Shown: positions 39,768 through 61,041, numbered from the stretch's first letter. The stretch: 64,000 nt of DNA from an uncultured Acidobacteriota bacterium (GCA_963837015.1 CAWIMI010000008.1:3035-67034), one strand, 5' to 3'. Translations and numbers: made by a program. Notes: a model not told the origin generated them from the letters alone.

Positions 39768-40745
39768 CTAGGCGAACGTCGGCAGTTTTATCAGGTCGCT
39801 GGGTGGCACCGGTTCCAGCGGTTGACCCGCCTTCTTCCACGCCGCCACGCCGCCAACGAGGACAAACGCGCTGAATCCCTGTTCTCGCAGTTGCAGCGCC
39901 ACCCGGGCGCTGGTCGCTTCGCGCGCTCAAGTACAGTAGACGTAAATGTCTTTGTCCTTGCGGAGGGTTTTGAGTTCCTCGGTGAGGTTGTTGGGTTCGA
40001 TGCGAATCGATCCTTTGATGCGCTCCGCGCCAGCGTCGTAGTAGCCGTGGCTTCGGACGTCAAGAATCAGAACCTTATCTTTTTCCTCCGAAGCCAGTCT
40101 CGTTGCCAGCTCTTCCACCTGTGCGCGCGGCACCACGCGGTACACCTTATTCTTGTGGTAAAGCCAGACACGGTAAACGATGTAAACGATGGCCGCTACG
40201 AAAAGTACTTCTTCAAATACGCGGCCTGCAGCCTGGAATCCACGCGTGATTGCGGCCAGAAAGTCGCGAAACAAGAATCCCAGAGTGCCGTAGGCCAGGA
40301 TATACAGCGACGCGCCAGCGGCGTCGAAGCGAAGGAACTGCATAGGGCGCATCTTCAGGCTGCCGGCGAGCGGCGGGGCCATGGTATTGACGCCGGGAAT
40401 GAACTTGGCGACCAGGAGCGTAGTCTTTCCCCGTTTGTAAAAGGACTCAGCCGAGCGCAGAACACACGACTCCGGATTCGCCGACAGGCGGCACAGAAGA
40501 CCCAGGAGGCCCCATCCCATGTAGCGGCCGAGGATGAAGAGCAGACTGTCGCCGAGCAGCATTCCGCTTAGGGCGACGAGTAAGACTTTAGGTACACTCA
40601 GACTGCCAGCTGCCGCGCCGGCTCCTCCGGCCACGAGAGCTACAGCCGCTGGAACGGGCAGGCCGATCGCTTCAGCCAGCACAACCACGAAGATGACAAG
40701 ATAACCGTGATGCGCGATCAGTGAGAGAATATTGTTCATCTTCAA
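39768..40745 (-). CDS. DedA-family membrane domain fused to a rhodanese domain, with in-frame TGA (39927-39929) at the catalytic Cys position: candidate selenoprotein, or a nonsense-disrupted gene
   Basis: DedA: HHGYLVIFVVVLAEAIGLPVPAAVALV. Rhodanese: VLILDVRSHGYYDAGAERIKGSIRIEP...DKDIYVYCT-TGA-AREATSARVALQLREQGFSAFVLVGGVAAWKKAGQPLE. The same frame continues for 52 codons to TAG 39768-39770. Confidence 0.75.
39894..39912 (-). promoter_or_regulatory. SECIS-like hairpin 14 nt downstream of the rhodanese TGA
   Basis: Minus strand: UGA-GCGCGCGAAGCGAC-CAGCGCC-CGGGU-GGCGCUG. Perfect 7-bp stem with a 5-nt loop containing GGU. Confidence 0.45.
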
Positions 40746-40820
40746 CGCATCAGAACTGAAGGTATTAGATAGGCTGCCAAGTCAACAGGATTCAAAGCCC
40801 CAGGGAGGAACAATAATCCA

Positions 40821-41219
40821 ATGCTGACAAAAACCAAAGCCGTTCGCCGCCACATCAATCTCCCCAATCGTAAAGTACCTCTGCCATTCAGCGATGCGGT
40901 CCTGGTAGGCAATACTCTTTACCTTTCCGGACGCATCGGTATCGACCCCGCGACCGGCGTGGCGCCTGAAGACGTCAACCAGGAACTTCGTCTGCTGTTC
41001 GACGGTTTTGAGGGCGTCCTCGCCGAGGCCAGCATGAATATGGATGACCTAGTCTGGGTACAAGTTTACTCGCCCGACGTTTCTTTGTGGGAGCCCTTCA
41101 ACAACGCCTACGTCCAACGGTTCGCAAAAGACCTGCCGGCGCGGGCGTTTATCGGCTCGGGGAAGCTGTTGAAAGGTGGAAGATTCGAGATGCTCGGAGT
41201 GGCGGTGAAGAGATCGTGA
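40821..41219 (+). CDS. RidA/YjgF family protein
   Basis: PFSDAVLVGNTLYLSGRIGIDPATG...ARAFIGSGKLLKGGRFEMLGVAV, the typical RidA pattern. Confidence 0.85.
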   Translation: MLTKTKAVRRHINLPNRKVPLPFSDAVLVGNTLYLSGRIGIDPATGVAPEDVNQELRLLFDGFEGVLAEASMNMDDLVWVQVYSPDVSLWEPFNNAYVQRFAKDLPARAFIGSGKLLKGGRFEMLGVAVKRS

Positions 41220-41220
41220 A

Positions 41221-42210
41221 CTACTTTTCTCTCGCTACAACGAATTCCGGCGCCCACAACAAGGCCCGCTTGATCTCGCCATCGGGGAATCCGCAGATCG
41301 CATTTCGCGCCAGCGCGGCATACTGCATGGCGCGGGCGTTAGCAGCTTCGACTGAGCCGTAACGGTTCAGAATCTCGAGGATTTCTGCATGAGTAACGCC
41401 GTCGAAGGCGCGTTCCCGCACTACCCGGCCGATGCGCTCGCGCTCAATCGGCGTACAGCGCTCGAGCGCATGAATCACCGCCATCGTTACTTTGCCCTCG
41501 CGTAGATCGCTGGCCACGGGCTTGCCCAGGATGTCCTCGGAGGCGGTCAGGTCGAGCACATCATCTACAATCTGGAACGCCATGCCGAGGTCCCGGCCGT
41601 ACTGCGCGAGATTCTCTTCCTGTTCTGGAGTTGCCCCGCCCAGAATTGCCCCAATCCGCATGCATACGGAAAATAAGCAAGCTGTCTTGCGGAAGATCAG
41701 GTCGAAATGCTCGTCCGAGGAAATCAGCTTGCCCAGTTTTTCCATCTGCAGCAGTTCGCCTTCGACCATCTGCTGGGTCAGATCGATCAGCGTGTCCAGA
41801 ATGCGGAAGTTGCGTTCCTGCACAGCAATCTTGAAGGCCTGCATGTAGAGCCAATCGCCCGCCAGCACGCACTTGGAGTTTCCCCATTGCGTATTGGCAG
41901 CGGGACGGCCACGCCGGATCTGGGCCTCGTCGATGATGTCATCGTGAACCAGCGTGGCGGTGTGAATAATTTCGACGACCGCACCCAGCTTGATAGCACC
42001 GCGTCCCTGGTAGTCGAGGAGTCTGGCAGACAACAACAGGAGCATGGGACGAATGCGCTTGCCACCACCGCTGCGCAGGTATTCACCGATTTCTGTAATC
42101 GCCTCAACTCCCGAGACGGTATCGCGCCCAAACTCGCGCTCAATGGCGGAAAGGTCGCCGCGCAGCAATTCAAAGATTTCTTTTCCGTTGATGGTGGCTG
42201 GCGTGCTCAA
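41221..42210 (-). CDS. Polyprenyl diphosphate synthase (trans-IPPS, IspB-like)
   Basis: First DDxxD in TLVHDDIIDEAQIRRGRPA, second in AFQIVDDVLD. Confidence 0.9.
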   Translation of the reverse strand: MSTPATINGKEIFELLRGDLSAIEREFGRDTVSGVEAITEIGEYLRSGGGKRIRPMLLLLSARLLDYQGRGAIKLGAVVEIIHTATLVHDDIIDEAQIRRGRPAANTQWGNSKCVLAGDWLYMQAFKIAVQERNFRILDTLIDLTQQMVEGELLQMEKLGKLISSDEHFDLIFRKTACLFSVCMRIGAILGGATPEQEENLAQYGRDLGMAFQIVDDVLDLTASEDILGKPVASDLREGKVTMAVIHALERCTPIERERIGRVVRERAFDGVTHAEILEILNRYGSVEAANARAMQYAALARNAICGFPDGEIKRALLWAPEFVVAREK

Positions 42211-42255
42211 TTAGTTCGCCCCAACTCCAAAGCCTAAACTCCAACTGTAAAACTT

Positions 42256-42753
42256 CTAGTTCGTTCGGTAGTTTGTAAACTGCGTATCAATGCCGAAATC
42301 CTGCGCCCGGAGCAGCGTAATAATTTCCTGCAACGCGTCGCGATCCTTTCCGCTCACTCGTACCAAGTCTCCCTGAATCGAAGCATTCACCTTCTTCTTG
42401 GAATCCTTGATGACCTTGACGATCTGGCGCGCTTTCTCAATGGGAATGCCCTGCTGCATCGTGATTTTCTGCTTTACGGTGCCGCCCGCGGCGGCTTCAA
42501 CGGCACCATAGGTTAGTCCCTTGAGAGATACGCCACGCTTCACCAGTTTCTGCTGGAAGATCTCGGTGACAGCCTTCAGCTTATACTCGTCCAGCGAGTG
42601 CAAATTGATGGCCTCCTTGCCTTCGAGTTCGATGTTTGACTTCGAATCTTTCAGGTCGAAACGGGTGTGAATCTCCTTCAACGCCTGCTGCATGGCGTTC
42701 GCCACTTCCTGCAGGTCAAGCTTGCTCACAATGTCAAAAGTATTCTCTGGCAT
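42256..42753 (-). CDS. yajQ: YajQ family nucleotide / cyclic-di-GMP-binding protein
   Basis: FDIVSKLDLQEVANAMQQALKEIHTRFDLKDS...ASIQGDLVRVSGKDRDALQEII; 165 aa. Confidence 0.9.
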   Translation of the reverse strand: MPENTFDIVSKLDLQEVANAMQQALKEIHTRFDLKDSKSNIELEGKEAINLHSLDEYKLKAVTEIFQQKLVKRGVSLKGLTYGAVEAAAGGTVKQKITMQQGIPIEKARQIVKVIKDSKKKVNASIQGDLVRVSGKDRDALQEIITLLRAQDFGIDTQFTNYRTN

Positions 42754-42811
42754 AGCAATTCGCTTCCAGTTAACAGATTACACAGCCCCAGCAAAAGATG
42801 CTCTAAACAAG

Positions 42812-43645
42812 CTAAATGGAGTTGAGCTTTTCGTGAAGCGAAAAGAAGCGATAAAAGTTTTTCGCGGTCTGCAAACCAATATCTTCCGTTGAAAGCCCGC
42901 GTAACTCGCCCATTTGCCGCGCTACCTCTTTTACGAACGAGGGTTCGTTGCGCTTGCCGCGATGCGGCACAGGCGCCAGGAATGGCGAATCAGTTTCAAT
43001 CAGCAGGCGGTCGAGCGGCACCTGCTTTGCGGCTTCGCGAATCTGCAGCGCTTTGGGAAAAGTGACATTTCCGGCAAAGGAGATCATGAATCCCATGTCG
43101 AGCGCCCGCAAAGCATACGCGCTGGTTCCAGTAAAACAATGAAGAATGCCTCCCAGGCCGCTCCCGGCCCAATGCTCCTGCAACAGCTTGAGGCAATCCT
43201 CCCATGCGTCTTCGGTTTTATCGGAAGGTCGGCAGTGAATCACAATCGGCAATTTGGCGGCCTGCGCGAGTTGGAGTTGCCTCAGAAATACTTGTTGTTG
43301 CACATCCCGCGGTGAATGGTCATAGAAGTAGTCGAGTCCAATTTCGCCCCACGCAATGACCTTGGGACGCTTCGCGAATTGCGCCATCTTTTCGAAATCA
43401 GTATCGCTGGCCAGCTTGGCTTCGTGCGGATGAATGCCGATGGTCGCGTAAATGAACTCGTGCTGTTCTGCGAGCCGAATCGCGCAATCAAGCGACCCTG
43501 GCCCGGTTCCGCTGCCGATGGCGAGAATAGTTTCGATCCCAGACTCTTTGGCGCGTTGTAGCATGGCGACGCGATCGGCATCGAACTGCTCCATCTCGAG
43601 ATGCGCGTGGGAGTCGACGAAGATCGGTCGTTGGTTGTTGGTCAT
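42812..43645 (-). CDS. tatD: TatD family metal-dependent hydrolase
   Basis: FVDSHAHLEM..., IGEIGLDYFY, VIHCR, ILHCFTG, ETDSPFL. Confidence 0.9.
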   Translation of the reverse strand: MTNNQRPIFVDSHAHLEMEQFDADRVAMLQRAKESGIETILAIGSGTGPGSLDCAIRLAEQHEFIYATIGIHPHEAKLASDTDFEKMAQFAKRPKVIAWGEIGLDYFYDHSPRDVQQQVFLRQLQLAQAAKLPIVIHCRPSDKTEDAWEDCLKLLQEHWAGSGLGGILHCFTGTSAYALRALDMGFMISFAGNVTFPKALQIREAAKQVPLDRLLIETDSPFLAPVPHRGKRNEPSFVKEVARQMGELRGLSTEDIGLQTAKNFYRFFSLHEKLNSI

Positions 43646-43712
43646 TAGTCGTGTGGTGACGGGCGACTCGCCCGTCGGGATCGAGTGAAACTCAGCATGC
43701 GCAGGGGTTTCG

Positions 43713-45752
43713 CTACTTCAACCTCGTACCCACGGGGACATCTTCGAGGAAGCTCGCCAACACAGCTTTCCCGCCCTCGGATGACGCGGCGACGATCATT
43801 CCATTCGATTCCAGGCCTCGAAGTTTACGAGGCGCAAGGTTTGCCACAATTACTACTTTTCTGCCGATCAGAAGCTCCGGCGCGTAGGATTCGGCGATAC
43901 CGGCGACCACCTGTCGAACCTCCGTACCCAAATCGACCTCCAATCTGAGCAGTTTGTCCGCGCCTTTCACCTTTTCGGCGGCCTTTACCTGGCCGACGCG
44001 CAGTTCGACTTTCGCAAAGTCGTCGATGGTAATCTTGCCGTCGGGCACGGCTGGGACAGGCTTCGCGGCGGGCGTAGCAACCACGGCCTGTGCGTCGAGA
44101 CGAGAAACCGCCATCGTCGGTGCTGGTGTCTCAGGCTGTGCTTCGATTGGGCTAGGTGTGCTTCGTTGCTGCTCTTCCATATTCTGCATCCTTTCGATTG
44201 CGCTCTTGTCGGCGCGCGGGAAGACCGCTTCGATATTGCCCAACTTAGTGCCCAGTTGGAGTTGCCCCCACTTCAGATCAGAGAGGGGAAACTTGCGAAT
44301 ATCGCCCAGGCCCAGTTGCGCCCAGATCTTCGAGGTTGCGTCGGGAATTACCGGGTGTGCCAATGCCGTCACAATGCGCAAGGCTTCAGCGCTGGTATAC
44401 AGAATCGTCCCCAGCCGCGAACGATTCTCCTCGTCCTGCTTTTCACCCAGCGCCCACGGTTCGTTCTCGACAATGTATTTATCCACCGCAGCCACGAGGC
44501 CCCACGCGACTTCGAGAGCGCGTGAAAACTGATACTGATCAAACAGCGTGGAATATTCGGCAATAACATGGCGTGCGCTGTCAGCGATAGCACTGTCTGC
44601 CGCCCTTTGCGAAACCGGAGCCGAAGGATATGGCACCTCGCCTCGAAAATAACGCGTGATCATGGTCAGCGTGCGGCTGGCGAGGTTGCCGAGGCCGTTG
44701 GCCAGATCCGCGTTGTAACGCTGTACGAGCGCGTCGAAGGAAAACGTTCCATCCTGGCCGAATACCACTTCACGCAGAAGGAAGTAGCGAAGCGCGTCAG
44801 CGCCCAGCACGTCGAGAATCGTCTCAGCACGCACGATGTTTCCGCGCGATTTCGACATTTTGCTTTCCTCGAACAGCAGCCAGCCATGCGCCACAATGCT
44901 CTTGGGTAAAGGAAGTCCCGCAGCCATCAGAAACGCAGGCCAATACACGCAATGGAAGCGAACGATCTCCTTGCCGATCATCTGCAGATCAGCGGGCCAG
45001 TACTTCCGAAACGCTTCTTGGGCGCCCTCGTGCGACGATCCGTAGCCGATGGCCGTGATGTAGTTCGCCAGAGCATCCAGCCATACGTAAATCACATGCT
45101 TGGGGTCGTCCGGCACCGGAATACCCCAGGAGAAGGTCGAGCGGCTGATGGAAAGATCACGCAGTCCACCGCGCACGAACGACATTACCTCATTTCGTCT
45201 CGTCTCCGGCCGGATGAAGTCGGGTTGCTCGGCGTACAGTTGGAGCAGCTTCTCCTGAAATGCGGAAAGCCTAAAAAAGTAGTTCTCTTCCTTCACTGTT
45301 TCCGTCGGACGCCCGCACTCCGGGCAGGGAGCGCCGGGCCCGACCGCATCTACGTAGAGTTCGTCGAACACGCAGTATTGGCCGGTATAAGTGCCCTTGT
45401 AGATGTGGCCGTTATCGCGGAGCTGCCGAAAGAGGTGCTGCACTCGCTTCTTGTGTCGTTCCTCCGTGGTGCGGATAAAGTCGTCGTTGGTGATGCCCAT
45501 CCGCTTCCACAACTGCCGGAACTGCGCCGAGATTTCGTCGGCGTACTGCTGGGGCGTTTTGTTGGCAGCCTGCGCCGCTCGCTCAATCTTTTGCCCGTGC
45601 TCGTCGGTGCCGGTGAGGAAGAATGTATCTGCGCCCAGCATGCGCTGCCTCCGCGCCACCGTATCGCAGGCAATCGTGGTGTAAGCGTGGCCGATGTGCG
45701 GCCGCGCATTTACGTAATAGATGGGTGTGGTGACGTAGAATTTCTTGTTCAT
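43713..45752 (-). CDS. metG: Methionine--tRNA ligase with C-terminal tRNA-binding (EMAP/Trbp111-like) domain
   Basis: FYVTTPIYYVNARPHIGHAYT (HIGH), the CPECG knuckle, KMSKSRGN (KMSKS), and C-terminal FAKVELRVGQVKAAEKVKGADKLLRLEVDLG. Confidence 0.95.
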   Translation of the reverse strand: MNKKFYVTTPIYYVNARPHIGHAYTTIACDTVARRQRMLGADTFFLTGTDEHGQKIERAAQAANKTPQQYADEISAQFRQLWKRMGITNDDFIRTTEERHKKRVQHLFRQLRDNGHIYKGTYTGQYCVFDELYVDAVGPGAPCPECGRPTETVKEENYFFRLSAFQEKLLQLYAEQPDFIRPETRRNEVMSFVRGGLRDLSISRSTFSWGIPVPDDPKHVIYVWLDALANYITAIGYGSSHEGAQEAFRKYWPADLQMIGKEIVRFHCVYWPAFLMAAGLPLPKSIVAHGWLLFEESKMSKSRGNIVRAETILDVLGADALRYFLLREVVFGQDGTFSFDALVQRYNADLANGLGNLASRTLTMITRYFRGEVPYPSAPVSQRAADSAIADSARHVIAEYSTLFDQYQFSRALEVAWGLVAAVDKYIVENEPWALGEKQDEENRSRLGTILYTSAEALRIVTALAHPVIPDATSKIWAQLGLGDIRKFPLSDLKWGQLQLGTKLGNIEAVFPRADKSAIERMQNMEEQQRSTPSPIEAQPETPAPTMAVSRLDAQAVVATPAAKPVPAVPDGKITIDDFAKVELRVGQVKAAEKVKGADKLLRLEVDLGTEVRQVVAGIAESYAPELLIGRKVVIVANLAPRKLRGLESNGMIVAASSEGGKAVLASFLEDVPVGTRLK

Positions 45753-45842
45753 TTGTGCATTTCAGGCTACGGGACAACACAAAGGAATCCGCTCTGAAGC
45801 CTTCCTCGGTAAAACTCGCGTCCTTCGTGGTTGATGACTTTG

Positions 45843-47318
45843 TCAGTCCTGGTGGTTCATATAAAGATGCAGAGCTTCCTGCATTACGGCCTTCAGTGGA
45901 ACGTGGAACTCAGTCGCAATGCGTCGGCAATCCTCATATTCCGGCGCGGAGTTCATCACCCCGTCTTTCATGCTGGCGACCTTGAGCCGTACATCACCCC
46001 AGCGGGTCGTAACCGTTACCCACTTCCGGTTCAGCATCTGACGCTTTTCCTCACGCTGCCGAACGCCAAGGGTTGTTGTTTCCGAAAAAATCAGACGGAT
46101 CAACTTCGAGGCATCCTCCGTCCGGCATAGAACGTTCAGCAGCATGCCCGGACGATTCTTCTTCATCTGCACCGGCAAGCCAAAGACATCGAGTGCCCCT
46201 TCCTCGAGCAAACGATCCATGACGTAGCCGAAAACCTGCGGGTTCAAATCATCGATATTCGCCTCGAGCACGGTGATTGTGTCCGTCGGAATTTCAGATG
46301 ACAGTTCCGGCCGGGTTTCGCCGATCGTGAGCCGCACCACGTTCGCTTGTCCGGCGAAGTCACGAGTCCCGGCGCCGTAGCCGGCTTTTTCAACCTTCAT
46401 CGCTGGGAAGGGCGCGAAGCGTTTCGCCAGCGTTTTCACTATCGCGGCACCCGTTGGAGTGACCAACTCAGCTTGAACGCCGGAGGAATACACAGGTGCG
46501 TCTTTCAGCAACTCGAGCGTCGCGGGCGCAGGTATCGGCAAAGTTCCGTGCGCGCACTCGACTGTGCCGCCTCCCACGTTCAGCGGTGAACAGACGATTT
46601 GGTCAACGCCCAGCGCCTCGGCTCCGACGGCGGCGCAGACAATATCTACCATGGCGTCCACTGATCCGACTTCGTGAAAATGAATCTCCTCAACGTCGGC
46701 GTCGTGAATCTTTGCCTCTGCCTCCCCCAATGCTTCGAAGATTTCGATCGCTGTCTTCTTCGCGGCCTCGCTGATTGACGCCTTGCCGATAATGTCGCGG
46801 ATCTCCTTTAGACCTCGTCCTTCTTCGTGCGAATGAGCGTGTTCATGTTTACGTTGCGGCGCTGGCACGATGTTTCCCATGTGCTCGCCTTCGGCATGCT
46901 GAGGTGAGAACCCTTCCGCTCGCGAAGCGCCGTGGCTTTGCAACGCGTAGTTATGTTCCAAAAGTGTGACCGGTTCCCCATGATGAGCGTGCATGTTTTT
47001 ATTCTCATCGTGGCTATGTTGAGTGTGCCCTTGCTTCTGAACGTGGATATGCTCGTCATCTTTATGCCCAGCGTGGACTTGCTCCGATTGTCCATCCCAC
47101 ATCTCGCGCGGCAAATCCTTTTCACCGTTCGCATAAACGTCGACCTTGATCGCGCTTATACCATTGCGCTGCACGCGAGAAATCTCAAGCTTTGCCCCAA
47201 TGTTTAATCCCGAAGCCGTTCCTTCAAGAAGTTGGGCGGGAACGCCGACATCGACCAGCGCGCCCAGGAACATATCCCCGCTCATGCCGGAAAAACATTC
47301 AAGATAGGCTATACGCAT
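45843..47318 (-). CDS. larC: LarC-family nickel insertion protein with a His-rich insertion
   Basis: The internal ATG gives MRIAYLECFSGMSGDMFLGALVDVGV. The His-rich segment is HAGHKDDEHIHVQKQGHTQHSHDENKNMHAHHGE...HEHAHSHEEG. The C-terminal domain is VLEANIDDLNPQ. Confidence 0.85.
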   Translation of the reverse strand: MRIAYLECFSGMSGDMFLGALVDVGVPAQLLEGTASGLNIGAKLEISRVQRNGISAIKVDVYANGEKDLPREMWDGQSEQVHAGHKDDEHIHVQKQGHTQHSHDENKNMHAHHGEPVTLLEHNYALQSHGASRAEGFSPQHAEGEHMGNIVPAPQRKHEHAHSHEEGRGLKEIRDIIGKASISEAAKKTAIEIFEALGEAEAKIHDADVEEIHFHEVGSVDAMVDIVCAAVGAEALGVDQIVCSPLNVGGGTVECAHGTLPIPAPATLELLKDAPVYSSGVQAELVTPTGAAIVKTLAKRFAPFPAMKVEKAGYGAGTRDFAGQANVVRLTIGETRPELSSEIPTDTITVLEANIDDLNPQVFGYVMDRLLEEGALDVFGLPVQMKKNRPGMLLNVLCRTEDASKLIRLIFSETTTLGVRQREEKRQMLNRKWVTVTTRWGDVRLKVASMKDGVMNSAPEYEDCRRIATEFHVPLKAVMQEALHLYMNHQD

Positions 47319-47427
47319 AGGAGCCGTCGTTGCTCGTTGATCTTGAGTCGTTAGTCTTAACGTCACCGGCTAACAGGCCGATGACTAACGACCCACGACT
47401 GATTTTCATCATAGGGAAGCGAGAACC

Positions 47428-49470: not shown

Positions 49471-49494
49471 ATCGGGTTCATGCCGGCGCTCACG

Positions 49495-49710
49495 CTAGCT
49501 CTTGCCGCGTCCGGCGATCATCATTCCCGCTCCCACCACCACCAGCGCCACGCTAAGGGCAGGAGCGACCCGGTCTTCGTGATGGGTGGTTACCCCGAGC
49601 TGGACGTCACCGGCGCTGACCCCGTGGTGTTCTGAATGTGGCACGGTCACAAAAAACGAAAGAATTCCTAGGACCAGTACGACCAACCCGACACCAAACA
49701 GTGCTCTCAT
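49495..49710 (-). CDS. Possible small two-TM membrane protein
   Basis: MRALFGVGLVVLVLGILSFFVTVP...APALSVALVVVGAGMMIAGRGKS. No family recognised; 71 aa. Confidence 0.45.
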   Translation of the reverse strand: MRALFGVGLVVLVLGILSFFVTVPHSEHHGVSAGDVQLGVTTHHEDRVAPALSVALVVVGAGMMIAGRGKS

Positions 49711-49859
49711 GAATGATTCTCCACGTCCGCAGAAATGGTCTATATGCTGACGTGTCGCTGAAATAGTCAGCGCAGCTTCAGATGCAGGGGGTCGAGAATG
49801 GGCTGCATGATGGTCAAATTTTCGATGCAGACGGACGGAGTGGACCGCCGCCACACGAC

Positions 49860-51347: not shown

Positions 51348-51599
51348 AGTTTTTGTGTAACTCCAGTATCGTCGGCGGCGGGGCAAAAACGCAAGGCCAG
51401 TTACTCGGAGATGAAGGCTTCGCTTTGCGATTCCGGAGACGGTGTCCTGTAAAAATCCAATCAAGGTGGTGCTAAGAGCTCTGATGAGATCACAAACGCT
51501 AACGGTTTCCGTGGGCTGGAATTCAGGTCTTTGCCCCCTTTTCTGGCTCTCTGGCATCTCAAATATTAGGGGAATGCTCGGAGTTGAAAGGAGAACTTC

Positions 51600-52547: not shown

Positions 52548-52565
52548 GACTGATTCTCGGGCGAC

Positions 52566-54167: not shown

Positions 54168-54217
54168 CGAGTCATTCCTCCAGTCAATTCTGGCATCTGC
54201 GGTGAGGCAGTGTGTTC

Positions 54218-56317
54218 TCACCAGACCCTGCATTGATTAGCCCGCACCATGGGCGAACCCTTCTTGCAGGAGAAGGCTTCCTGAAACTCGGGCATATTGG
54301 AGACGACATTGTTTACCCGGTATTTCGGGATGGAATGCGGGTTTGTCAACACAATGGTCCGCATGAATTCAGGGCGAAGCTCTTCACACCATGAATAGGC
54401 GTAGGACACAAAGAACTTCTGCCGTGGTGTCCAGCCGTCGGCTTCCTTGGCGTCGAGCGACTTGCCCTCCGACTGCAGTTTGTTCGTTACCGCCATAAAC
54501 GCTAATCGCAGACCACCGTTATCTGCGGTGTCCTCGCCCTGAGTCAAATGTCCGTTCTGCTTCACGCCAGCCTCCCGAATTTCCTCGGTGTATTCGTCGG
54601 CGACGCACTGCCCGCGTTGGTCGTAGGCCTTGGCGTCTGCCTCCGTCCACCAGTCGCGGAGATTCCCCTGGGCATCGAACTTGCGGCCTTGATCGTCGAA
54701 GCCGTGCGTTATTTCGTGTCCGATTACCATGCCGATGGCGCCGTAATTGACCGGATCCCCCATCTTGCTGTCGAAGTATGGAGGCTGCAAAATGCCGGCA
54801 GGGAAGTTGATCGTATTCAACTGCGGATCATAGTAGGCATTGATGGTAGGTGGAGTCATGGTCCACTCCGCACGATCAACAGGCTTGCCGATTTTGTCGA
54901 GTTGCCGGTGAAACTCGAAAGTGGTTGCCTCGTGCACATTGTTGATATAACTGTCGCGTCCAACTTTCACCGAGGAGTAATCGCGCCAGTGGTTGGGATA
55001 TCCGATCTTGTCCTCGATGGCCCGCAGCTTGATTTTCGCCTGCTCTTTAGTTGCCGGTTGCATCCAGTCGATGGTGGTTATGTCCTGGTCCAGCGCGTGT
55101 TCGATGTCATGTACCATCGCGACCGTGCGCTGCTTGCTCTCCGGCGGAAAGGCCGCGGCTACGTACGCCTGCCCCAGAGCCATTCCAAGATCGCGGTCGG
55201 CGGCACGCACACAGCGGCGCCAGCGAGGCTGCAGCTGTCTTGCTCCCTGCAAAGTGTGTGAATAAAAATCCCAATTCTCGTCAACAAACGCCTTGCTCAA
55301 ATACGGCGCTGAGCCGTGGATCAGGTGCCAGCGCAAGTAAACCTTCCAATCATCCACCGAATGTTGCTGAATCAATGGTTCGAGGCCGCGGAAAAATTGA
55401 GGAGAAGATACGATGTAGTGTGGTAAAGAAGGTGGTGCTCCGACCACCTCGATGTAGTGCTTCCAGTCGAATGAAGGAGTCAGTGACTGAACCTGCTCCA
55501 AACTCATCTTGTTGTTCAGGTTCTTGGGATCGCGCCGCAGGACATTGTCCATCTGCGCTTGCGCCATGGCGGTTTCGATTGCGAAGATTGTCTTCGCGTC
55601 GGCAGCTGCTTGTTCCGGGCTTTCTCCTGAAAGCACCAGCATTTTCTTGATATGGGTCTCGTACTTGCCGCGGATTTCCTTGGATTTGTCGTCATCCTTG
55701 ATGTAGAAATCACGGTTCGGCAATCCCAGTCCGCCCTGATCGATAGCGGCGACGACTCTGCTGGCGTCGTCAAAATCCTGCTGTTGACCAAAGCCCAGGA
55801 GCGCGGCACGAGTCTGATTGTCGTCGCCTTGCCATGCGCCTGGAACGGCTTGGTGGATATGGGCCACCTGATCGGCTAGCTGCGACTTGCTGGTCATCTG
55901 AGCGATCCGCTCGAGTTCCGGCCTTAAATCCCGCGTCCCAGCGGCCTCAATTCCGGATTCATCCATGCAGGCAGCCCAATAGTCTCCGATTTTCTGCTCA
56001 TAATCCGTACGATTGCTGGTTGGTGCTGCCGCCTTCTCCAGGGCGTCGCGGAGGATATTCTCGTTCCAGTACTGCAAACCACTGCCAGTTCCCCAGGCCA
56101 CCTGATCCGCGGGAATGGGATTTGCCGCATTCCACCTGCTGCACGCGTATTTGTAGAAGTCCTGGCACGGGTCGAGCGACTTATCCACCATGCTGATATC
56201 GAAGTGCTCCAGCTTAGGCGTATTTTGTGACGCGGGCGCGCCCTGGGCGTAGGCATGAATGATGCCGAGCACGGGAAAAAGTAGAACGACTCCGATCGCA
56301 AGTCTTACGATACGCAT
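54218..56317 (-). CDS. M13 family metallopeptidase (neprilysin/PepO-like)
   Basis: The internal ATG 56317-56315 gives the signal peptide MRIVRLAIGVVLLFPVLGIIHAYAQ. Motifs: NAYYDPQLNTINFPAGILQ, GMVIGHEITHGFDDQGR, GEDTADNGG, and C-terminal CRVW. Confidence 0.9.
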   Translation of the reverse strand: MRIVRLAIGVVLLFPVLGIIHAYAQGAPASQNTPKLEHFDISMVDKSLDPCQDFYKYACSRWNAANPIPADQVAWGTGSGLQYWNENILRDALEKAAAPTSNRTDYEQKIGDYWAACMDESGIEAAGTRDLRPELERIAQMTSKSQLADQVAHIHQAVPGAWQGDDNQTRAALLGFGQQQDFDDASRVVAAIDQGGLGLPNRDFYIKDDDKSKEIRGKYETHIKKMLVLSGESPEQAAADAKTIFAIETAMAQAQMDNVLRRDPKNLNNKMSLEQVQSLTPSFDWKHYIEVVGAPPSLPHYIVSSPQFFRGLEPLIQQHSVDDWKVYLRWHLIHGSAPYLSKAFVDENWDFYSHTLQGARQLQPRWRRCVRAADRDLGMALGQAYVAAAFPPESKQRTVAMVHDIEHALDQDITTIDWMQPATKEQAKIKLRAIEDKIGYPNHWRDYSSVKVGRDSYINNVHEATTFEFHRQLDKIGKPVDRAEWTMTPPTINAYYDPQLNTINFPAGILQPPYFDSKMGDPVNYGAIGMVIGHEITHGFDDQGRKFDAQGNLRDWWTEADAKAYDQRGQCVADEYTEEIREAGVKQNGHLTQGEDTADNGGLRLAFMAVTNKLQSEGKSLDAKEADGWTPRQKFFVSYAYSWCEELRPEFMRTIVLTNPHSIPKYRVNNVVSNMPEFQEAFSCKKGSPMVRANQCRVW

Positions 56318-56659
56318 CGATGTCTCCTGGATTTGAAAGGAAAAGTCTGATCCTGTGTAGCGGAACAACGAGCCGTCTTGGTTTGAGTAGCGCGCAAGTT
56401 GCTGGTAGCCTGCGCCAAGAAGTTTACCGCAGTTTGCTCAGCTCCGCTTGTGTGTTGGGCCGTTTCCGTCCTATCAAGTGATCGGTGTTCGATGTCAGTT
56501 ACAACTGCTTTTGCGAAGTAACTCGCGCTCAGATTATTCGAAGTTCGAGGCTTCAGCGGGATCGATAGAAAATGAAAGGATAATCGGAAGAAAAAAATGG
56601 GAGCTTTATTCGCAAGCCTAAGGACTCTCTGAATAAGTAAGTTTCTGACTGCGCAAGTG

Positions 56660-57313
56660 TAAGTATCCCCCGGCAGAGCCGGGGGCTTTAGTTTGTGAGC
56701 CGCTCAAAGCGGCTGTGCGGGGTCGCAAATGCGGCCCCGAGTTTCTGGAGCCACCTTTCGGTGGCCGTTAGCGCCACAGGTTCATCTGGTCCAAGCGCTT
56801 GTCCTCTTGCTCTTGGTTCCGGATGTAGTCCCGAATCACCGTCTCATCCCGCCCCACCGTGGACACGTAGTACCCGCGCGCCCAAAAATGCTGCCCGACA
56901 AAGTTCCTCTTCCTTTCCCCATACACCCGTGCCAGGTGAATCGCGCTCTTCCCTTTGATAAACCCAATCACCTGCGACACCGCGTACTTCGGCGGGATCG
57001 CGATCATCATGTGCACGTGATCGGGCAGCAGATGCCCTTCTTCGATTCGACTCTCCTTCTGCACAGCCAGCTTGCGGAACACTTCTCCCAAGTGCTGCCG
57101 CAACTCCCCGTACAGCGTCTTTCTCCGGCACTTCGGGATGAACACCACATGGTATTTGCACTCCCACTTCGTATGGCTTAGGCTTTCCATTTCGTCCATC
57201 GTGAAACTCCTTTTCGTGTGCTTGGCGGCTCACGTCTGGGAGTTTCCGCGATGGACTCCTGTATCTGTCAAACTTCTACTGCCTCCCCGGCAGAGCCGGG
57301 GGGTCTCTCTTCG
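56660..57313 (-). mobile_element. IS200/IS605-family element (boundaries approximate)
   Basis: It carries a Y1 transposase gene. The same subterminal hairpin CCCCGGCAGAGCCGGGG occurs at both ends (56667-56685 and 57285-57303). Confidence 0.7.
56768..57199 (-). CDS. tnpA: IS200/IS605 family Y1 (HUH) transposase TnpA
   Basis: KYHVVFIPKCRRK...LLPDHVHMMIAIPPKYAVSQVIGFIKGKSA...FWARGYYVSTVG, containing the HUH motif and catalytic Tyr. Confidence 0.9.
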   Translation of the reverse strand: MDEMESLSHTKWECKYHVVFIPKCRRKTLYGELRQHLGEVFRKLAVQKESRIEEGHLLPDHVHMMIAIPPKYAVSQVIGFIKGKSAIHLARVYGERKRNFVGQHFWARGYYVSTVGRDETVIRDYIRNQEQEDKRLDQMNLWR

Positions 57314-57315
57314 TA

Positions 57316-58432
57316 CTAGTACCGTGACCGCGTGATTATGTAGTCAAAAGTGGCGCGAGCCTTTTTGCGAGTAAATTGCCATTGGATCGGAAGGTGATGG
57401 CGATTCATACGGCGGCTCCAGGCGAGAGTTTGCCTGCGTAGAGAAGCCCGATCTCCGATCCGGCGTTGACCGAGGCATTGCCGCGAAAACAAGCTGATCG
57501 CGATCTCGGCTTGGTTCAGCCAACTGCCGTGCTTGGGGGTGTAATGCACCGTAAACCGATCCCACAGCCAGTTCCCGGCCTTCTCGCCAAAGCGTTCCAC
57601 CACCGCCTTGCGCGTATGCGAACTCAGATTGTCCAACACCAAATGGATGGTGTCCGCCTCAGGGTAGCGGATCGCAACCTCCAGCAGGTAGTCGGCAAAT
57701 TCGGGCGAAGAGCGATGAGCCGTGACCTTGGGGAAGTACTGCCCCGCTTTCGGTTCGACTCCACAGAACACGTTGGCGGTGCCGCAACGCTGGTATTCGC
57801 TATCGCGCCGCGCGATTCGTCCCGGCCTCATGGCCCAGGGAGGACGAACCTCTTGGTGGAGAACCACCGGTTTCTCATCCACACAAACCACCGGTTCCCG
57901 CTCACTCAGAGGCTTTTCATACACCGCCAAGATGTCCTCCATGCGCCGGATGTACTCCTCATCCAGTTCCGCCACGCACCACATTTTTTTCCCGCCACGG
58001 CTTCAGGTCGTGGCTTTCCAGCAAGACCCGAATCGTTTCCCGTCCCACCCGCGGCACCAGTTTGCGTTTCACCACCTCTTCGGTCAGCAGGCGTACCGTC
58101 CAGCGCGAGCGGCCTTCCGGCGGAGGACCACACGCCAGCGCCACGATGCGTTGCCGATGCTGCGCATCTAGCAAGGCCGCTTTCCCCGGTCGGGCCCGCT
58201 CGTATAAGGCGCGCTCCAAGCCGCCTTGCCGGTAGCGTTGGCTGGTCAGCCACACCGTCTTCGGAGTCAAGGCCGCGTTCTTCGCCACCTGCCGAACGGT
58301 TTGCCCCTCCGCCAGTTGCCGCAGGGCCAACGCTCGCAACACGGTGCGCACGGGCTGCAAGCCGCTGTGTAACAAGTGCCGTAACTCCTGCTGCTCTTGC
58401 TTGGACAGCCGAACCTGCGATTGCTTCTTCAT
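57316..58432 (-). CDS. IS630-family transposase in two frames (HTH part 58432-57959, DDE part 57984-57316) joined at an A7 slippery run
   Basis: The first frame ends ...LKPWREKNVVRGGTG*. The other frame reads (K)MWCVAELDEEYIRRMEDILAVYE...VCVDEKP...VLDNLSSH...HYTPKHGSWLNQAEI. The A7 run is at 57984-57990 (minus strand). Confidence 0.85.
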
Positions 58433-58507
58433 GTCCCAGCTATAAGCTCGGACATGCTCGTGAACAAGTATCTATCTGTATTACTATCTATGCGGTCATA
58501 GTACTAG
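57316..58507 (-). mobile_element. IS630-family insertion sequence with TA target duplication
   Basis: Ends are TA|CTAGTACCGTGACCGC... and ...GCGGTCATAGTACTAG|TA, i.e. imperfect inverted repeats CTAGTAC(C/T)(G/A)TGACCGC. TA is found at 57314-57315 and 58508-58509. Confidence 0.75.
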
Positions 58508-58589
58508 TACCTCAGCCATGGTGGGTTGATGACCTAGCTTTCCACTTGGATTTCTTGGCTCCGCCTTCGCTCATCGAACCGGCTTTCAT

Positions 58590-59573
58590 CTACGCGCTCG
58601 CTGTCAGCAGCTTCTGACGACTCAGAAACAGATTGACCAACCCGCAGATCACGAACAGCTGATGCGCGTTCTTCTTCAGTCCTCGGTAACGCAGCTTCAC
58701 AAATCCAAATTTCAACTTCATCACCTGAAATACGTGCTCCACCTTGGACCGCACGCTCGATTTCGTCCGATTCTTCGCCCGCTCCTCTTCGTCAATCCCG
58801 TTCTTATAGCGGTAGCGACGGTGCGTGTGGTCCTGCGCCCGGGGTGCGCACTCCTGGATAACCTCAGTTTGTCCGCGATAAGCCTGATCACCCCATACCC
58901 GGGTTTCTTCCCCATGCAACAGATCGGGCAGCACCCTCGAGTCGGCCACATGGGCCGGCGTGGCTACCGCCGTATGGATGATCTTGGTCTTGCTGTCCAC
59001 TCCTACATGGGCCTTCATCCCGAAAAACCACTGCTTGCCTTTCTTGGTCTGGTGCATCTCCGGATCGCGCTGCTGCTCTCGGTTCTTGGTCGACGTAGGC
59101 GCGTGCAGGATGGTTGCGTCTACGATCGTGCCGGTGGTGATGCGCACTCCTCGGGCTTGCAAGTGCAGATTGACCGTGCCCAGAATCTTTTCCCCAAGTC
59201 GATGTTCTTCCAGCAAATGCCGAAACTTGCACACCGTGGTTTCGTCCGGCGCCGGCTCCTGCCCCAGATCGATCCCCACGAACTGCCGCATCACCGGCGA
59301 GTCATACAGGGCCTCTTCCACGGCCGGGTCCGATAGGTTAAACCACTGCTGCAGAAAATAAATCCGCAGCATCCGCTCCACTCCCACCGGCGGGCGCCCA
59401 TTCCCCGGCTTGGGATAATGGGGTTCGATTCGCGCCCACAACTCTCGCCACGGGACCACTTGTTCCATTTCTTCCAGAAATACCTGCCGTCGTGTCTTTT
59501 TCGTGTACCGCTCAAAACCATTCATCGTCGCCAGACTCCTCTGTTGTTTGTTCCTCGATCTCATCTGGCGCAA
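58590..59573 (-). CDS. IS5-family DDE transposase
   Basis: FLEEMEQVVPWRELWARIEPHYPKPGNGRPPVGVERMLRIYFLQQWFNLSDPAVEEALYDSPVMRQF...DATILHAPTSTKN...VWGDQAYRG, the DDE_Tnp_1 pattern. The start may be the internal ATG (MNGFERY, 59525). Confidence 0.9.
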   Translation of the reverse strand: MRQMRSRNKQQRSLATMNGFERYTKKTRRQVFLEEMEQVVPWRELWARIEPHYPKPGNGRPPVGVERMLRIYFLQQWFNLSDPAVEEALYDSPVMRQFVGIDLGQEPAPDETTVCKFRHLLEEHRLGEKILGTVNLHLQARGVRITTGTIVDATILHAPTSTKNREQQRDPEMHQTKKGKQWFFGMKAHVGVDSKTKIIHTAVATPAHVADSRVLPDLLHGEETRVWGDQAYRGQTEVIQECAPRAQDHTHRRYRYKNGIDEEERAKNRTKSSVRSKVEHVFQVMKLKFGFVKLRYRGLKKNAHQLFVICGLVNLFLSRQKLLTASA

Positions 59574-59652
59574 CTTACTCTATATCCCTGTGGAAAGGGG
59601 AGACCTTATTCAGAGTCTCCCTAAAGCCCCCTCGTGCGGTTGTCGGCGCAGC

Positions 59653-60057
59653 TTAGCTCATCGGGCTGATGTCTGAGACATGGATCGTGCTCGTGTTGCT
59701 GTCGAGGCTCCCACTTACCTTTACCTGCTGGCCGACGTATTTCTTGGCCTTCTGCTGATCATCCAACTGGTAGCTCATGTCGCTGGTCTTCAGCACATAC
59801 TTGCCACCTGCCTTCACCACGGTTCCGCTGAAAGATGAGGCTTGGTTGGCTTGCATGGAACTCGATGAATCCTGGTCCGGGGAACTCGGTTGGGGCTGTG
59901 TTCCTTGCTGATCCGCAGTGGGTTGCTGTGTGTTCTGCGTATCCGAAGCCGATGGCTGGGTGCTCGGCTGCGCTGACTGATCCTGCTGGGCGAAGCCGAC
60001 CGCAGAAAGTGCCATCGCTAGCGCCATCGTGGCTATTGCTGTAAGTAGTTTCTTCAT
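59653..60057 (-). CDS. Small secreted protein with a Gln/Ser/Pro-rich linker
   Basis: Signal peptide MKKLLTAIATMALAMALSAVGFAQ, then the C-terminal module FSGTVVKAGGKYVLKTSDMSYQLDDQQKAKKYVGQQVKVSGSLDSNTSTIHVS. Confidence 0.7.
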   Translation of the reverse strand: MKKLLTAIATMALAMALSAVGFAQQDQSAQPSTQPSASDTQNTQQPTADQQGTQPQPSSPDQDSSSSMQANQASSFSGTVVKAGGKYVLKTSDMSYQLDDQQKAKKYVGQQVKVSGSLDSNTSTIHVSDISPMS

Positions 60058-60240
60058 TCGTCTTTCCTCCGTTTTTGATTACGATCCGGCGAGGCTTAAG
60101 CTAGCAAGCGCCGTGCCATTTTCCTCAGCCTCGCGATGCCAAGCACATAGCCATGAGGTCGCGCTGCAGATCAATTTAGTAGGAGGTTTTTTCCCGAACA
60201 AGAATGAAAGTTATTCGTACAGAGAAACCTGTAGCTAGGT

Positions 60241-61041
60241 TTAAGGGGTGTCCCGCTTTTCTGTCTCGGACCGCGCCTGGGTCGAGTGCACTACCCGAGT
60301 TACGGCTGACTTCAGTTCCTCAGCGTTGAAGCCAAACGGACCGGGTCTGCTCTTATAAGCCACGCGTCCTGTGGAGTCGATCAAGTAAAGGCGGTCTGGC
60401 CACGCGGTGTAGGCCCGCTCGGTTGAGTTGCCAAATTCATCCAGCACCGCGGGAATCTCTATTCCGAGCTTGCGCACGCAAGCTCCGGCCACAAAACCGC
60501 GCTCTTCCTCGCTTCTCGGACTGGCAAACACAACCTTGTCCTCGAGGTTGCTGTGCATCTGCCAGACGTCACTGGGATGCGCTTCGGTAATGTAGACCAC
60601 GAGGAAAGCAGCCTGGCTTCCATACTCTTTGTAGAGCTTGTTGAGGGCGGGCACCTCCCGCCGGAACGGAGGTCAAGTGTAGCTGCCAAATATGAGTACC
60701 ACCGGCTGTCGTTGAGCGGTAAACGCAGACAGCTGTATCTGCGCGCTCTTGTCCAGCTTGGTTAAAGAAAAATCTGGTGCGGGGTCGCCTATTTGCAGCG
60801 TGCCGCTACGGGCGCGCATCCACAACGTTTCGAATGGAAGTACGAGAAACGCGACCGGACCAGGAACTCTGGCCATTACCCGAGCAAACTTCTCGGGGGG
60901 CTGCCGCATGACCGTGTACAACGCCCCGCAGGCGAAGATCCACAAAAGCGCGAGCACCGCGAAAGCCGTAACCAACCGCGTTCTTACCGACTCGCCCTTC
61001 GAATTCAGAACCTTCGTCCCCACAAACTTTGTTGCCCCCAC
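60241..61041 (-). CDS. Iodothyronine-deiodinase-like thioredoxin-fold protein with in-frame TGA (60673-60675) at the active-site position: candidate selenoprotein
   Basis: ORFs 60673..61041 and 60241..60654 are in the same frame and are joined by ...QPVVLIFGSYT-TGA-PPFRREVPALNKLYKEYGSQAAFLVVYITEAHPSDVW. This matches the deiodinase signature FGS-x-T-U-P-x-F and the downstream (Y/F)(I/V)xEAHPSDxW. There is an N-terminal TM anchor. Confidence 0.8.
60646..60662 (-). promoter_or_regulatory. SECIS-like hairpin 10 nt downstream of the deiodinase-like TGA
   Basis: Minus strand: UGA-CCUCCGUUCC-GGCGGG-AGGUG-CCCGCC. Perfect 6-bp stem with a 5-nt loop containing GGU. An alternative fold, CCUCCG...CGGGAGG, starts directly after the UGA. 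Confidence 0.45.

What the first reader, a model, noticed from the sequence alone, without database searches (positions are those of the whole stretch)
39768..61041. Two independent UGA-at-catalytic-Cys genes share the same downstream hairpin architecture, implying a Sec-decoding host
The two cases lie 20 kb apart. Both have UGA at the redox or persulfide Cys position and a 10-14 nt spacer. Both then have a 6-7 bp all-Watson-Crick GC-rich stem with a 5-nt loop containing GGU (CGGGU and AGGUG). From memory, the E. coli fdhF SECIS loop needs a G and U for SelB binding, and published bacterial SECIS models require a G in the first two loop positions about 16-37 nt from the UGA; both hairpins satisfy that. 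Two chance nonsense mutations each landing on a catalytic Cys codon and each followed by such a hairpin seems unlikely. If this is real, automated annotation of this genome will systematically truncate or split its selenoproteins.
Basis: inference. Interest (0 to 1): 0.6.

Follow-up and report, generated by a model that had tools for sequence, protein, structure and literature searches.

The report
Two genuine selenocysteine genes, Acidobacteriota
Both in-frame TGA codons are real selenocysteine codons in two already-known bacterial selenoprotein families. The genome has the full machinery to read them, so this is correct but ordinary biology whose main consequence is mis-annotation.

Summary
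The observation and the interpretation both hold.

**The two genes.** On the minus strand, a DedA/VTT–rhodanese gene (39768-40739) has TGA at 39929-39927. A deiodinase-like gene (60241-61041) has TGA at 60675-60673.
- Each TGA falls on the catalytic Cys/Sec position.
- Each is followed by the described hairpin: 14 nt, then 7 bp with loop CGGGU; and 10 nt, then 6 bp with loop AGGUG.

**Evidence that these are Sec codons.**
- The genome encodes SelA, SelB, SelD (itself with an in-frame TGA) and one tRNA-Sec(UCA).
- The exact hairpin pattern follows only 9 of 180,530 TGA triplets genome-wide. Only these two have long open frames on both sides.
- The TGAs are conserved: all 23 strong rhodanese orthologs and all 19 deiodinase-like orthologs in sampled sister genera, and 75 of 80 named Terriglobales/Acidobacteriota genomes. 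The rest have Cys.
- Synonymous sites are frozen inside the stems and free in the flanking codons.

**Controls and context.**
- Two other in-frame TGAs in this genome are not conserved and fall on Ser or Trp. They are ordinary nonsense changes.
- At least seven further selenoprotein genes were seen.
- Public annotations do truncate, split or mistranslate these orthologs.

Both families are published selenoprotein families, so novelty is low.

The parts
39768..40739 (-). DedA/VTT membrane domain fused to a C-terminal rhodanese domain. It is a selenoprotein gene of 323 aa counted from ATG 40739; a TTG at 40745 is an alternative start. The stop is TAG 39770-39768.
   Evidence: Translation with TGA=U. 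Pfam VTT_dom scores 44.3 bits (cut-off 33.9) and Rhodanese 48.5 bits (cut-off 22.2). Orthologs align from residue 3.
39927..39929 (-). UGA selenocysteine codon (U271 from the ATG, U273 from the TTG) in the motif VYC-T-U-AREATS. It is the first residue of the 6-residue rhodanese active-site loop.
   Evidence: It aligns with Cys86 of the C-G-G-G-F-R-S loop of PDB 6mxv. All 36 full-length database homologues have Cys here. TGA is present in 23 of 23 strong orthologs from sister genera and in 75 of 80 named genomes.
39894..39912 (-). SECIS hairpin CAGCGCC-CGGGU-GGCGCUG, 14 nt after the UGA. It encodes T-S-A-R-V-A-L.
   Evidence: Minimum-free-energy hairpin. The 5-bp core GCGCC/GGCGC is kept in all 26 orthologs. 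Codons AGC, GCC, GTG and GCG are invariant in 25-26 of 26 sequences, while flanking Ala, Thr and Gly codons use 3-4 synonyms. The outer pair switches C-G to G-C in a few sequences. The core decays in 3 of 5 Cys-form genomes.
60241..61041 (-). Deiodinase-like thioredoxin-fold selenoprotein gene with an N-terminal membrane anchor. The start is uncertain: GTG 61041 or GTG 61023. The stop is TAA 60243-60241.
   Evidence: Translation with TGA=U. Pfam T4_deiodinase scores 116.4 bits (cut-off 27). The best solved relatives are type II and type III iodothyronine deiodinase, E 2e-24 and 2e-23.
60673..60675 (-). UGA selenocysteine codon (U123 of the longest ORF) in FGSYT-U-PPF.
   Evidence: It aligns with the catalytic Sec position of deiodinase 2 (FGSAT-C-PPF in chain 9h48_A, which reads Cys there). 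Among homologues, 64 have Cys and 44 have 'W', which is TGA read as Trp. TGA is present in 19 of 19 orthologs from sister genera.
60646..60662 (-). SECIS hairpin GGCGGG-AGGUG-CCCGCC, 10 nt after the UGA. It encodes R-R-E-V-P-A.
   Evidence: It is conserved in orthologs with loop AGGUU or AGGUG. CGG, CGG and GAG are invariant in 16-18 of 18 sequences. The Pro codon is only CCC or CCU, both of which pair with G, whereas Pro codons just upstream use all four synonyms.

Best explanation
Both TGAs are selenocysteine codons of an Acidobacteriota (Terriglobia/Terriglobales) bacterium that uses the standard bacterial Sec pathway.

**Pathway (established knowledge of the bacterial Sec system, not shown here).**
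- SelD makes selenophosphate.
- SelA converts Ser-tRNA-Sec(UCA) to Sec-tRNA-Sec.
- SelB-GTP binds that tRNA and the small GC-rich hairpin that lies 10-14 nt after the UGA inside the coding sequence.
- SelB delivers Sec to the ribosome when the UGA is in the A site.

**Products (function inferred from family).**
- A membrane-anchored DedA/VTT–rhodanese with a C-x-U active site. Sec replaces the persulfide-carrying Cys, and the Cys two residues upstream is placed to form a selenenylsulfide.
- A membrane-anchored deiodinase-like thioredoxin-fold oxidoreductase with Sec at the redox residue.

**Shown here:** the codons, hairpins, machinery genes, Cys/Sec homologue pairs, conservation of the TGA and of the hairpin, and purifying selection on the protein downstream of the TGA.

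**Inferred:** actual selenium insertion, SelB binding, and the enzymatic roles.
For: - **Sequence and domains:**
- **Hairpins:**
- **Machinery:**. There is one tRNA with a UCA anticodon, and tRNA-Trp has the normal CCA.
- **Pattern rarity:**
- **Catalytic position:** U aligns with the catalytic residue of deiodinase 2 and of a solved rhodanese.
- **Cys at the same column in homologues:**
- **TGA conservation:** kept across genera down to about 55% identity, and in 75 of 80 species representatives, the other 5 having Cys.
- **RNA-level selection:** synonymous sites are frozen in the stem codons only, and the loop third position is free (G or U).
- **Translation past the TGA:** codons after the TGA vary synonymously while the amino acids stay fixed.
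- **Hairpin relaxation:** the hairpin core is relaxed in Cys-form genomes.
- **Same layout elsewhere in the genome:** SelD, both FdhA genes and the AhpD-like gene have an 11-13 nt spacer, a 6-7 bp stem and a small G-containing loop. FdhA-1 has loop GGUCU.
- **Published families:** deiodinase-like and rhodanese-related in PMC1088965; 'rhodanese form 3, NF041203, CxU' and 'deiodinase-like PF00837' in PMC13188914.
Against: - There is no direct evidence of selenium in the proteins.
- No Rfam family matches either hairpin. I did not establish whether Rfam holds any bacterial SECIS model, so this is weak evidence.
- The 60-nt folds are not more stable than shuffles.
- The stem codons also encode conserved residues (SARVA, RREVPA). 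Part of the nucleotide conservation is therefore protein-level, and true compensatory changes are few, mainly the outer pair of the rhodanese stem.
- Three thioredoxin-fold genes with an in-frame TGA (two peroxiredoxins and one Prx-like UxxC gene) lack this hairpin layout. 'Same architecture' is therefore not universal in this genome.
Confidence: 0.93

Rival explanations
1. The TGAs are chance nonsense mutations or assembly errors, the genes are pseudogenes, and the hairpins are coincidental.
For: Such TGAs do exist in this genome.
- A class-V aminotransferase copy has TGA where orthologs have Ser.
- A 616-aa protein has TGA where an ortholog has Trp.
- Estimated contamination is 4.9%.
Against: - The two TGAs are conserved at the same codon in every strong ortholog from dozens of genera and in 75 of 80 species.
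- The downstream frame is under purifying selection.
- Both TGAs fall on catalytic Cys columns.
- The control nonsense TGAs show none of these properties.
Confidence: 0.01
2. UGA is read through here, but not as Sec. It could be read by near-cognate tRNA-Trp, by a Cys- or other-charged tRNA-Sec-like suppressor of the kind reported in Acidobacteria, or by local reassignment of the codon.
For: - Non-canonical allo-tRNAs that may act as suppressors have been described in Acidobacteria (PMC5389517).
- JGI gene calls read the codon as W.
- A few other in-frame TGAs in this genome sit where Trp is expected.
Against: - ARAGORN finds a single UCA-anticodon tRNA. It is called tRNA-SeC and passes the Rfam tRNA-Sec threshold, and tRNA-Trp has CCA.
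- selA, selB and selD are all present and intact.
- Homologues have Cys, never Trp encoded by TGG, at these columns. In the one case whose DNA could be read, the database 'W' is a TGA.
- TGA is otherwise a normal stop.
Confidence: 0.03
3. The TGAs are true stops and the genes are naturally split. A DedA protein with a crippled rhodanese stub would result, along with two separate deiodinase-like half-proteins, the downstream pieces being translated on their own or not at all.
For: Public annotation models them this way: 270-aa 'VTT domain-containing protein', and 146-160 aa C-terminal deiodinase fragments.
Against: - The 52 codons after the rhodanese TGA have no start codon context of their own, yet they complete the rhodanese fold in frame. 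Pfam and NCBIfam matches span the TGA.
- Cys-form orthologs are single uninterrupted proteins.
- A split exactly at the catalytic residue would inactivate both enzymes, yet both halves are conserved.
Confidence: 0.02

Closest known systems
Bacterial deiodinase-like selenoproteins (Pfam PF00837; Zhang, Fomenko & Gladyshev 2005, PMC1088965; listed in the 2026 review PMC13188914)
   Same: - A thioredoxin-fold deiodinase domain at 116 bits.
- Sec at the FGSxT-U-PxF redox position, aligned with the catalytic Sec of mammalian DIO2 and DIO3.
- Cys-form homologues exist.
- The SECIS hairpin lies inside the coding sequence immediately after the UGA, with G in the apical loop.
   Different: - The source is soil Terriglobales rather than marine metagenomes.
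- The protein has an N-terminal membrane anchor.
- It scores below the NCBIfam 'deiodinase_rel' cut-off (187.5 against 250).
- The review lists a UxxC motif for the family, but here the sequence is U-P-P-F with no Cys at +3, as in animal deiodinases.
Rhodanese-like selenoprotein 'form 3', CxU motif (NCBIfam NF041203 rhodanese_LYCAU; PMC13188914)
   Same: - Single rhodanese domain.
- C-x-U motif (here YC-T-U).
- Sec at the first position of the 6-residue active-site loop.
- Cys-form homologues read YCTC.
   Different: - It scores 88.7 bits, below the family cut-off of 115, so it is a relative and not a member of that equivalog.
- The domain is fused to an N-terminal DedA/VTT membrane domain, and that architecture is conserved across the order.
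- I did not establish whether the fusion has been described as a selenoprotein.
E. coli fdhF SECIS / SelB system
   Same: - UGA followed within about 11-14 nt by a short GC-rich hairpin inside the ORF.
- The apical loop contains G and U.
- selA, selB, selC and selD are all present.
- This genome's own FdhA-1 has the loop GGUCU at a 12-nt spacing.
   Different: - The hairpins here are shorter minimal stems, with no evident bulged U.
- Binding to this organism's SelB is inferred, not tested.

Membership tests
Bacterial selenoprotein gene (UGA-Sec decoded through SECIS and SelB) | In-frame UGA with a coding sequence conserved on both sides | tested here: met
   Single domain matches span the UGA. 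Downstream codons vary synonymously while the amino acids stay conserved.
Bacterial selenoprotein gene (UGA-Sec decoded through SECIS and SelB) | Homologues carry Cys at the aligned position | tested here: met
   Rhodanese: 36 of 36 full-length homologues have Cys, and 5 of 80 species have TGC or TGT. Deiodinase-like: 64 homologues have Cys.
Bacterial selenoprotein gene (UGA-Sec decoded through SECIS and SelB) | Stem-loop immediately downstream of the UGA, with a small apical loop containing G about 16-37 nt from the UGA | tested here: met
By my count from the folds, the first loop G lies 22 nt and 17 nt after the UGA. The hairpins are conserved in orthologs.
Bacterial selenoprotein gene (UGA-Sec decoded through SECIS and SelB) | Genome encodes tRNA-Sec, SelA, SelB and SelD | tested here: met
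   All four are above the curated cut-offs.
Bacterial selenoprotein gene (UGA-Sec decoded through SECIS and SelB) | Selenium is actually incorporated at the UGA | not testable with these tools
   This needs 75Se labelling or mass spectrometry.
Iodothyronine deiodinase family (PF00837) | Pfam gathering score and the FGSxT-(U/C)-PxF active-site motif | tested here: met
   116.4 bits against a cut-off of 27. The motif aligns to deiodinase 2 chain 9h48_A; deiodinase 3 (4tr3) is also among the best matches.
NCBIfam NF038285 deiodinase_rel | Whole-protein score at or above the curated cut-off of 250 bits | tested here: not met
   187.5 bits. It is a relative, not a member of this model.
NCBIfam NF041203 rhodanese_LYCAU (seleno)protein | Whole-protein score at or above the curated cut-off of 115 bits | tested here: not met
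   88.7 bits over residues 196-311. The CxU motif is shared, but the protein is a DedA fusion.
Rhodanese domain (PF00581) | Gathering score, and a catalytic Cys at the start of the CX4[R/T] loop | tested here: met
   48.5 bits against a cut-off of 22.2. U-A-R-E-A-T-S aligns with C-G-G-G-F-R-S of 6mxv.
DedA / VTT domain (PF09335) | Gathering score | tested here: met
   44.3 bits against a cut-off of 33.9. It is far below the UptA and DedA equivalog cut-offs, so no specific transporter function can be assigned.

The most novel reading that the evidence does not exclude
The DedA/VTT–rhodanese fusion with a C-x-U active site may be a distinct, membrane-anchored selenoprotein subfamily that has not been described as such. 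It is kept in the Sec form in about 94% of sampled Terriglobales species (75 of 80) and is routinely annotated as a truncated 'VTT domain-containing protein'. Its fixed link between a DedA-type membrane domain and a seleno-rhodanese could point to sulfur or selenium transfer at the membrane.
Probability: 0.35. Interest if true: 0.35.

Novelty: new member of a known kind. Interest (0 to 1): 0.25.

Why it matters
**Mechanism.** Nothing new: this is textbook bacterial Sec decoding in two selenoprotein families published since 2005.

**Practical value.**
- This genome and most of its soil Terriglobales relatives carry about nine or more selenoprotein genes.
- Standard pipelines truncate them (270-aa 'VTT domain-containing protein'), split them (deiodinase fragments), or mistranslate them (TGA read as W).
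- Catalogues of acidobacterial redox and sulfur-transfer enzymes are therefore systematically wrong at the catalytic residue.

**Method.** The case shows how to tell Sec codons from ordinary nonsense TGAs in a metagenome-derived genome. The useful tests are conservation of the TGA across genera, Cys in the remaining homologues, and frozen synonymous sites in the stem.

Tried and rejected
- **Rfam.** A scan of the whole window at gathering thresholds found nothing. Permissive scans of both hairpin regions gave only two chance hits below threshold, M23 and EBER1.
- **Whole-fold stability.** The 60 nt after each UGA are not more stable than shuffles. This was dropped as a criterion.
- **Genome-wide scan, first version.** Codon-usage scoring plus a hairpin gave 597 candidates, mostly antisense 'shadow' frames. 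It was replaced by a best-of-six-frames filter, which left 233 candidates that I read by eye.
- **Class-V aminotransferase (contig C11, position 1993).** It looked like a tenth selenoprotein, with a loop GGUCG. I rejected it because 19 orthologs and a 93%-identical second copy have Ser at that site and none has TGA.
- **616-aa protein (contig C33, position 97365).** Rejected. An ortholog has Trp at the site, none of three orthologs has a stop, and no hairpin is present.
- **DNA for the nearest 'W' homologue P0004.** It was not retrievable. P0035 was used instead and gave 'with_TGA=W'.
- **Other UCA-anticodon or suppressor tRNAs.** ARAGORN found none.
Full report
**What is there**

The window is contig C8:3035-67034 of a 6.07-Mb, 46-contig genome, 98.5% complete with 4.9% contamination. 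Its nearest named relatives are uncultured Terriglobales, Terriglobia and Acidobacteriaceae (Acidobacteriota) genomes assembled from metagenomes.

*Case 1.*
- On the minus strand, an ORF starting at ATG 40739 (or TTG 40745) encodes a DedA/VTT membrane domain followed by a rhodanese domain (Pfam 44.3 and 48.5 bits).
- It reads ...DKDIYVYCT, then TGA at 39929-39927, then 52 more sense codons (AREATSARVALQLREQGFSAFVLVGGVAAWKKAGQPLEPVPPSDLIKLPTFA) to TAG 39770-39768.
- Fourteen nucleotides after the TGA lies CAGCGCC-CGGGU-GGCGCUG at 39912-39894.

*Case 2.*
- Also on the minus strand, ORF 61041-60241 encodes a membrane-anchored deiodinase-like thioredoxin-fold protein (PF00837, 116 bits).
- It reads ...VVLIFGSYT-TGA-PPFRREVPALN..., with the TGA at 60675-60673.
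- Ten nucleotides later lies GGCGGG-AGGUG-CCCGCC at 60662-60646.

**Is it more than chance?**
A spacer of 10-15 nt, six Watson-Crick pairs and a 5-nt loop containing GGT follows 9 of 180,530 TGA triplets (5e-5). It follows 3 if at least 5 G/C pairs are required.
- Of the nine, only these two have long open frames with protein-like sequence on both sides.
- A loosely defined hairpin is not rare, at 2.3% of TGAs. The hairpin alone would therefore prove little.

**Catalytic position**
- U123 of the deiodinase-like protein aligns with the catalytic Sec position of type II iodothyronine deiodinase: FGSAT-C-PPF in chain 9h48_A, which reads Cys there, E 2e-24. Type III (4tr3) is the next best match at E 2e-23.
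- The rhodanese U aligns with Cys86 of the C-G-G-G-F-R-S active-site loop of the solved rhodanese 6mxv. U-A-R-E-A-T is therefore the 6-residue loop, with a conserved Cys two residues upstream (C-x-U).

**Sec machinery**

| Component | Location | Score (bits) | Cut-off (bits) |
|---|---|---|---|
| SelB | C30 | 367 | 242 |
| SelA | C28 | 543 | 268 |
| SelD | C28 | 361 | 125 |
| tRNA-Sec | C6:31584-31681 | 72 | 47 |

- SelD is itself interrupted by one TGA, in ...VKAAG-U-ASKLSP.
- ARAGORN gives anticodon TCA for the tRNA-Sec. It is the only UCA-anticodon tRNA among 50 tRNAs, and tRNA-Trp is the normal CCA.

**Homologues**
- *Rhodanese protein.* Of the 120 nearest database proteins, 84 stop exactly after YCT (269-270 aa). 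All 36 full-length ones have Cys at the U column (YCT-C-[AVQ]RE). One truncated cluster, P0126, was read at the DNA level. It ends in TGA, has the same hairpin, and the frame continues to ...KLPTFA-TAG.
- *Deiodinase-like protein.* 64 homologues have Cys and 44 have 'W' at the column. For P0035 the look-up states that it translates only 'with_TGA=W', so in that case the W is a TGA read under another code. I infer the same for the other 43. Fragments of 146-160 aa that start just after the TGA are also on record.

**Conservation across genomes**
- One genome was sampled from each of 60 other genera of the same family.
- All 23 strong orthologs of the rhodanese fusion (55-77% identity) contain exactly one TGA.
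- All 19 deiodinase-like orthologs contain one at this site.
- Among 80 named species representatives, 75 have TGA and 5 have TGC or TGT.

**Selection on the RNA**
- *Rhodanese, 26 orthologs.* The stem codons are essentially fixed: AGC 25 of 26, GCC 26 of 26, GTG 26 of 26, GCG 26 of 26. The loop codon varies (CGG 18, CGT 8). Flanking Ala, Thr, Gly and Pro codons use three or four synonyms.
- *Rhodanese, 80 species set.* The outermost pair changes C-G to G-C in a few sequences. Three TGA forms show G·U replacements in the core. Three of the five Cys forms have lost core pairs.
- *Deiodinase-like, 18 orthologs.* CGG-CGG-GAG are fixed in 16-18 sequences. The 3'-arm Pro codon is only CCC or CCU, both of which pair with G, whereas the two Pro codons right after the UGA use all four synonyms.
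- *Downstream of both TGAs.* Amino acids are conserved while third positions vary, so the region is translated.

**Wider selenoproteome**

A codon-usage and best-of-six-frames scan, followed by NCBIfam searches, found further in-frame TGAs at catalytic positions, each spanned by a single domain match:
- two formate dehydrogenase alpha subunits (C19:173352, C19:169441);
- two peroxiredoxins (C41:16006, C25:300723);
- a Prx-like UxxC protein (C32:159479);
- an AhpD-like CxxU protein (C28:22914);
- SelD.

For the C25 peroxiredoxin, the TGA is present in 14 of the 16 highest-scoring matches in other genera. SelD, both FdhA genes and the AhpD-like gene share the layout of an 11-13 nt spacer, a 6-7 bp stem and a small G-containing loop. 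FdhA-1 has loop GGUCU. The three thioredoxin-fold genes (two peroxiredoxins and the Prx-like UxxC gene) do not show it clearly.

**Negative controls**

Two other in-frame TGAs inside otherwise intact genes are ordinary nonsense changes.
- A class-V aminotransferase copy (C11:1993) has TGA where 19 orthologs and a 93%-identical second copy have Ser or Thr.
- A 616-aa protein (C33:97365) has TGA where an ortholog has Trp, and three orthologs have no stop.

Neither is conserved, neither sits on a Cys column, and the C33 site has no hairpin. This shows what a chance TGA looks like here, and why conservation rather than improbability alone carries the argument.

**Surroundings**
- Case 1 lies between a CYTH-domain gene (39151-39729, minus strand) and a RidA/L-PSP gene (40821-41219, plus strand), with a polyprenyl synthetase next to that. 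The same neighbours occur in a related contig.
- Case 2 lies between a DUF5818 gene with a DDE transposase on one side and a histidine kinase on the other.
- Nothing in either neighbourhood is related to selenium.

**Comparison with what is known**
- Bacterial deiodinase-like and rhodanese-related selenoproteins, each with Cys homologues and in-ORF SECIS elements bearing a G in a small apical loop, were described from the Sargasso Sea in 2005 (PMC1088965).
- A 2026 review lists 'deiodinase-like protein PF00837' and 'rhodanese-like form 3, NF041203, CxU' among more than 110 prokaryotic selenoprotein families (PMC13188914).
- Both proteins here score below the corresponding NCBIfam equivalog cut-offs: 187.5 against 250, and 88.7 against 115. 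They are relatives rather than members of those exact models.
- I did not find the DedA fusion mentioned in the review; 'DedA' has no occurrences.

**Verdict**

The biology is well established, so interest is low. The remaining value is correct annotation of acidobacterial selenoproteins and a possibly undescribed DedA-fused seleno-rhodanese subfamily.

Noticed in passing
Genome contig C11:1183-2472 (outside the window); second copy at C10:101816-103102: A TAT-signal class-V aminotransferase (PvdN/SufS-like) has an in-frame TGA at the 'HKWLQATKG-*-GFLY' site. The 93%-identical second copy has Ser (TCG) there, and 19 orthologs have Ser or Thr. This is a nonsense variant or a strain or contamination duplicate, not Sec.
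   Followed up: yes
Genome contig C33:96445-98295, minus strand (outside the window): A 616-aa protein has TGA where an ortholog has Trp (PPVWYSSWFD-W-VQYNGS), and three orthologs have no stop. Two more TGAs look similar, sitting where Trp seems expected: C32:127776 (VOC/glyoxalase-like, 'VFG*N') and C25:383982 ('GS*LVKI'). They may be TGG-to-TGA pseudogenes, consensus errors, or low-level Trp read-through.
   Followed up: partly
Window 39930-39932 (minus strand), the codon before the rhodanese UGA: The Thr codon immediately 5' of the UGA is ACT in 26 of 26 orthologs, although Thr has four codons. This may be a context requirement for Sec decoding or for avoiding termination.
   Followed up: no
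Loci L076-L155 (orthologs of the rhodanese fusion): In the five species where Sec has been replaced by Cys (TGC or TGT), three have lost pairs in the hairpin core. All 75 TGA forms keep the core, 72 with Watson-Crick pairs and 3 with G·U. This pattern is consistent with relaxed selection on the SECIS after a Sec-to-Cys change.
   Followed up: partly
Genome contig C28:74873-75799 (outside the window): SelD is itself a selenoprotein (...VKAAG-U-ASKLSP), with a hairpin GUCCGGC-GGC-GCUGGAC 13 nt after the UGA. The Sec pathway therefore depends on its own product.
   Followed up: partly
Window 58590-59573 (minus strand): A DDE transposase (IS) gene lies about 670 bp downstream of the deiodinase-like gene, beyond a DUF5818 gene (59653-60057).
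   Followed up: no
Window 61029-61041: The longest deiodinase-like ORF (GTG 61041) overlaps by 13 nt the divergent histidine-kinase ORF (TTG 61029, plus strand). Homologues suggest a shorter N-terminus, so the real start is probably GTG 61023 or the kinase starts later.
   Followed up: partly
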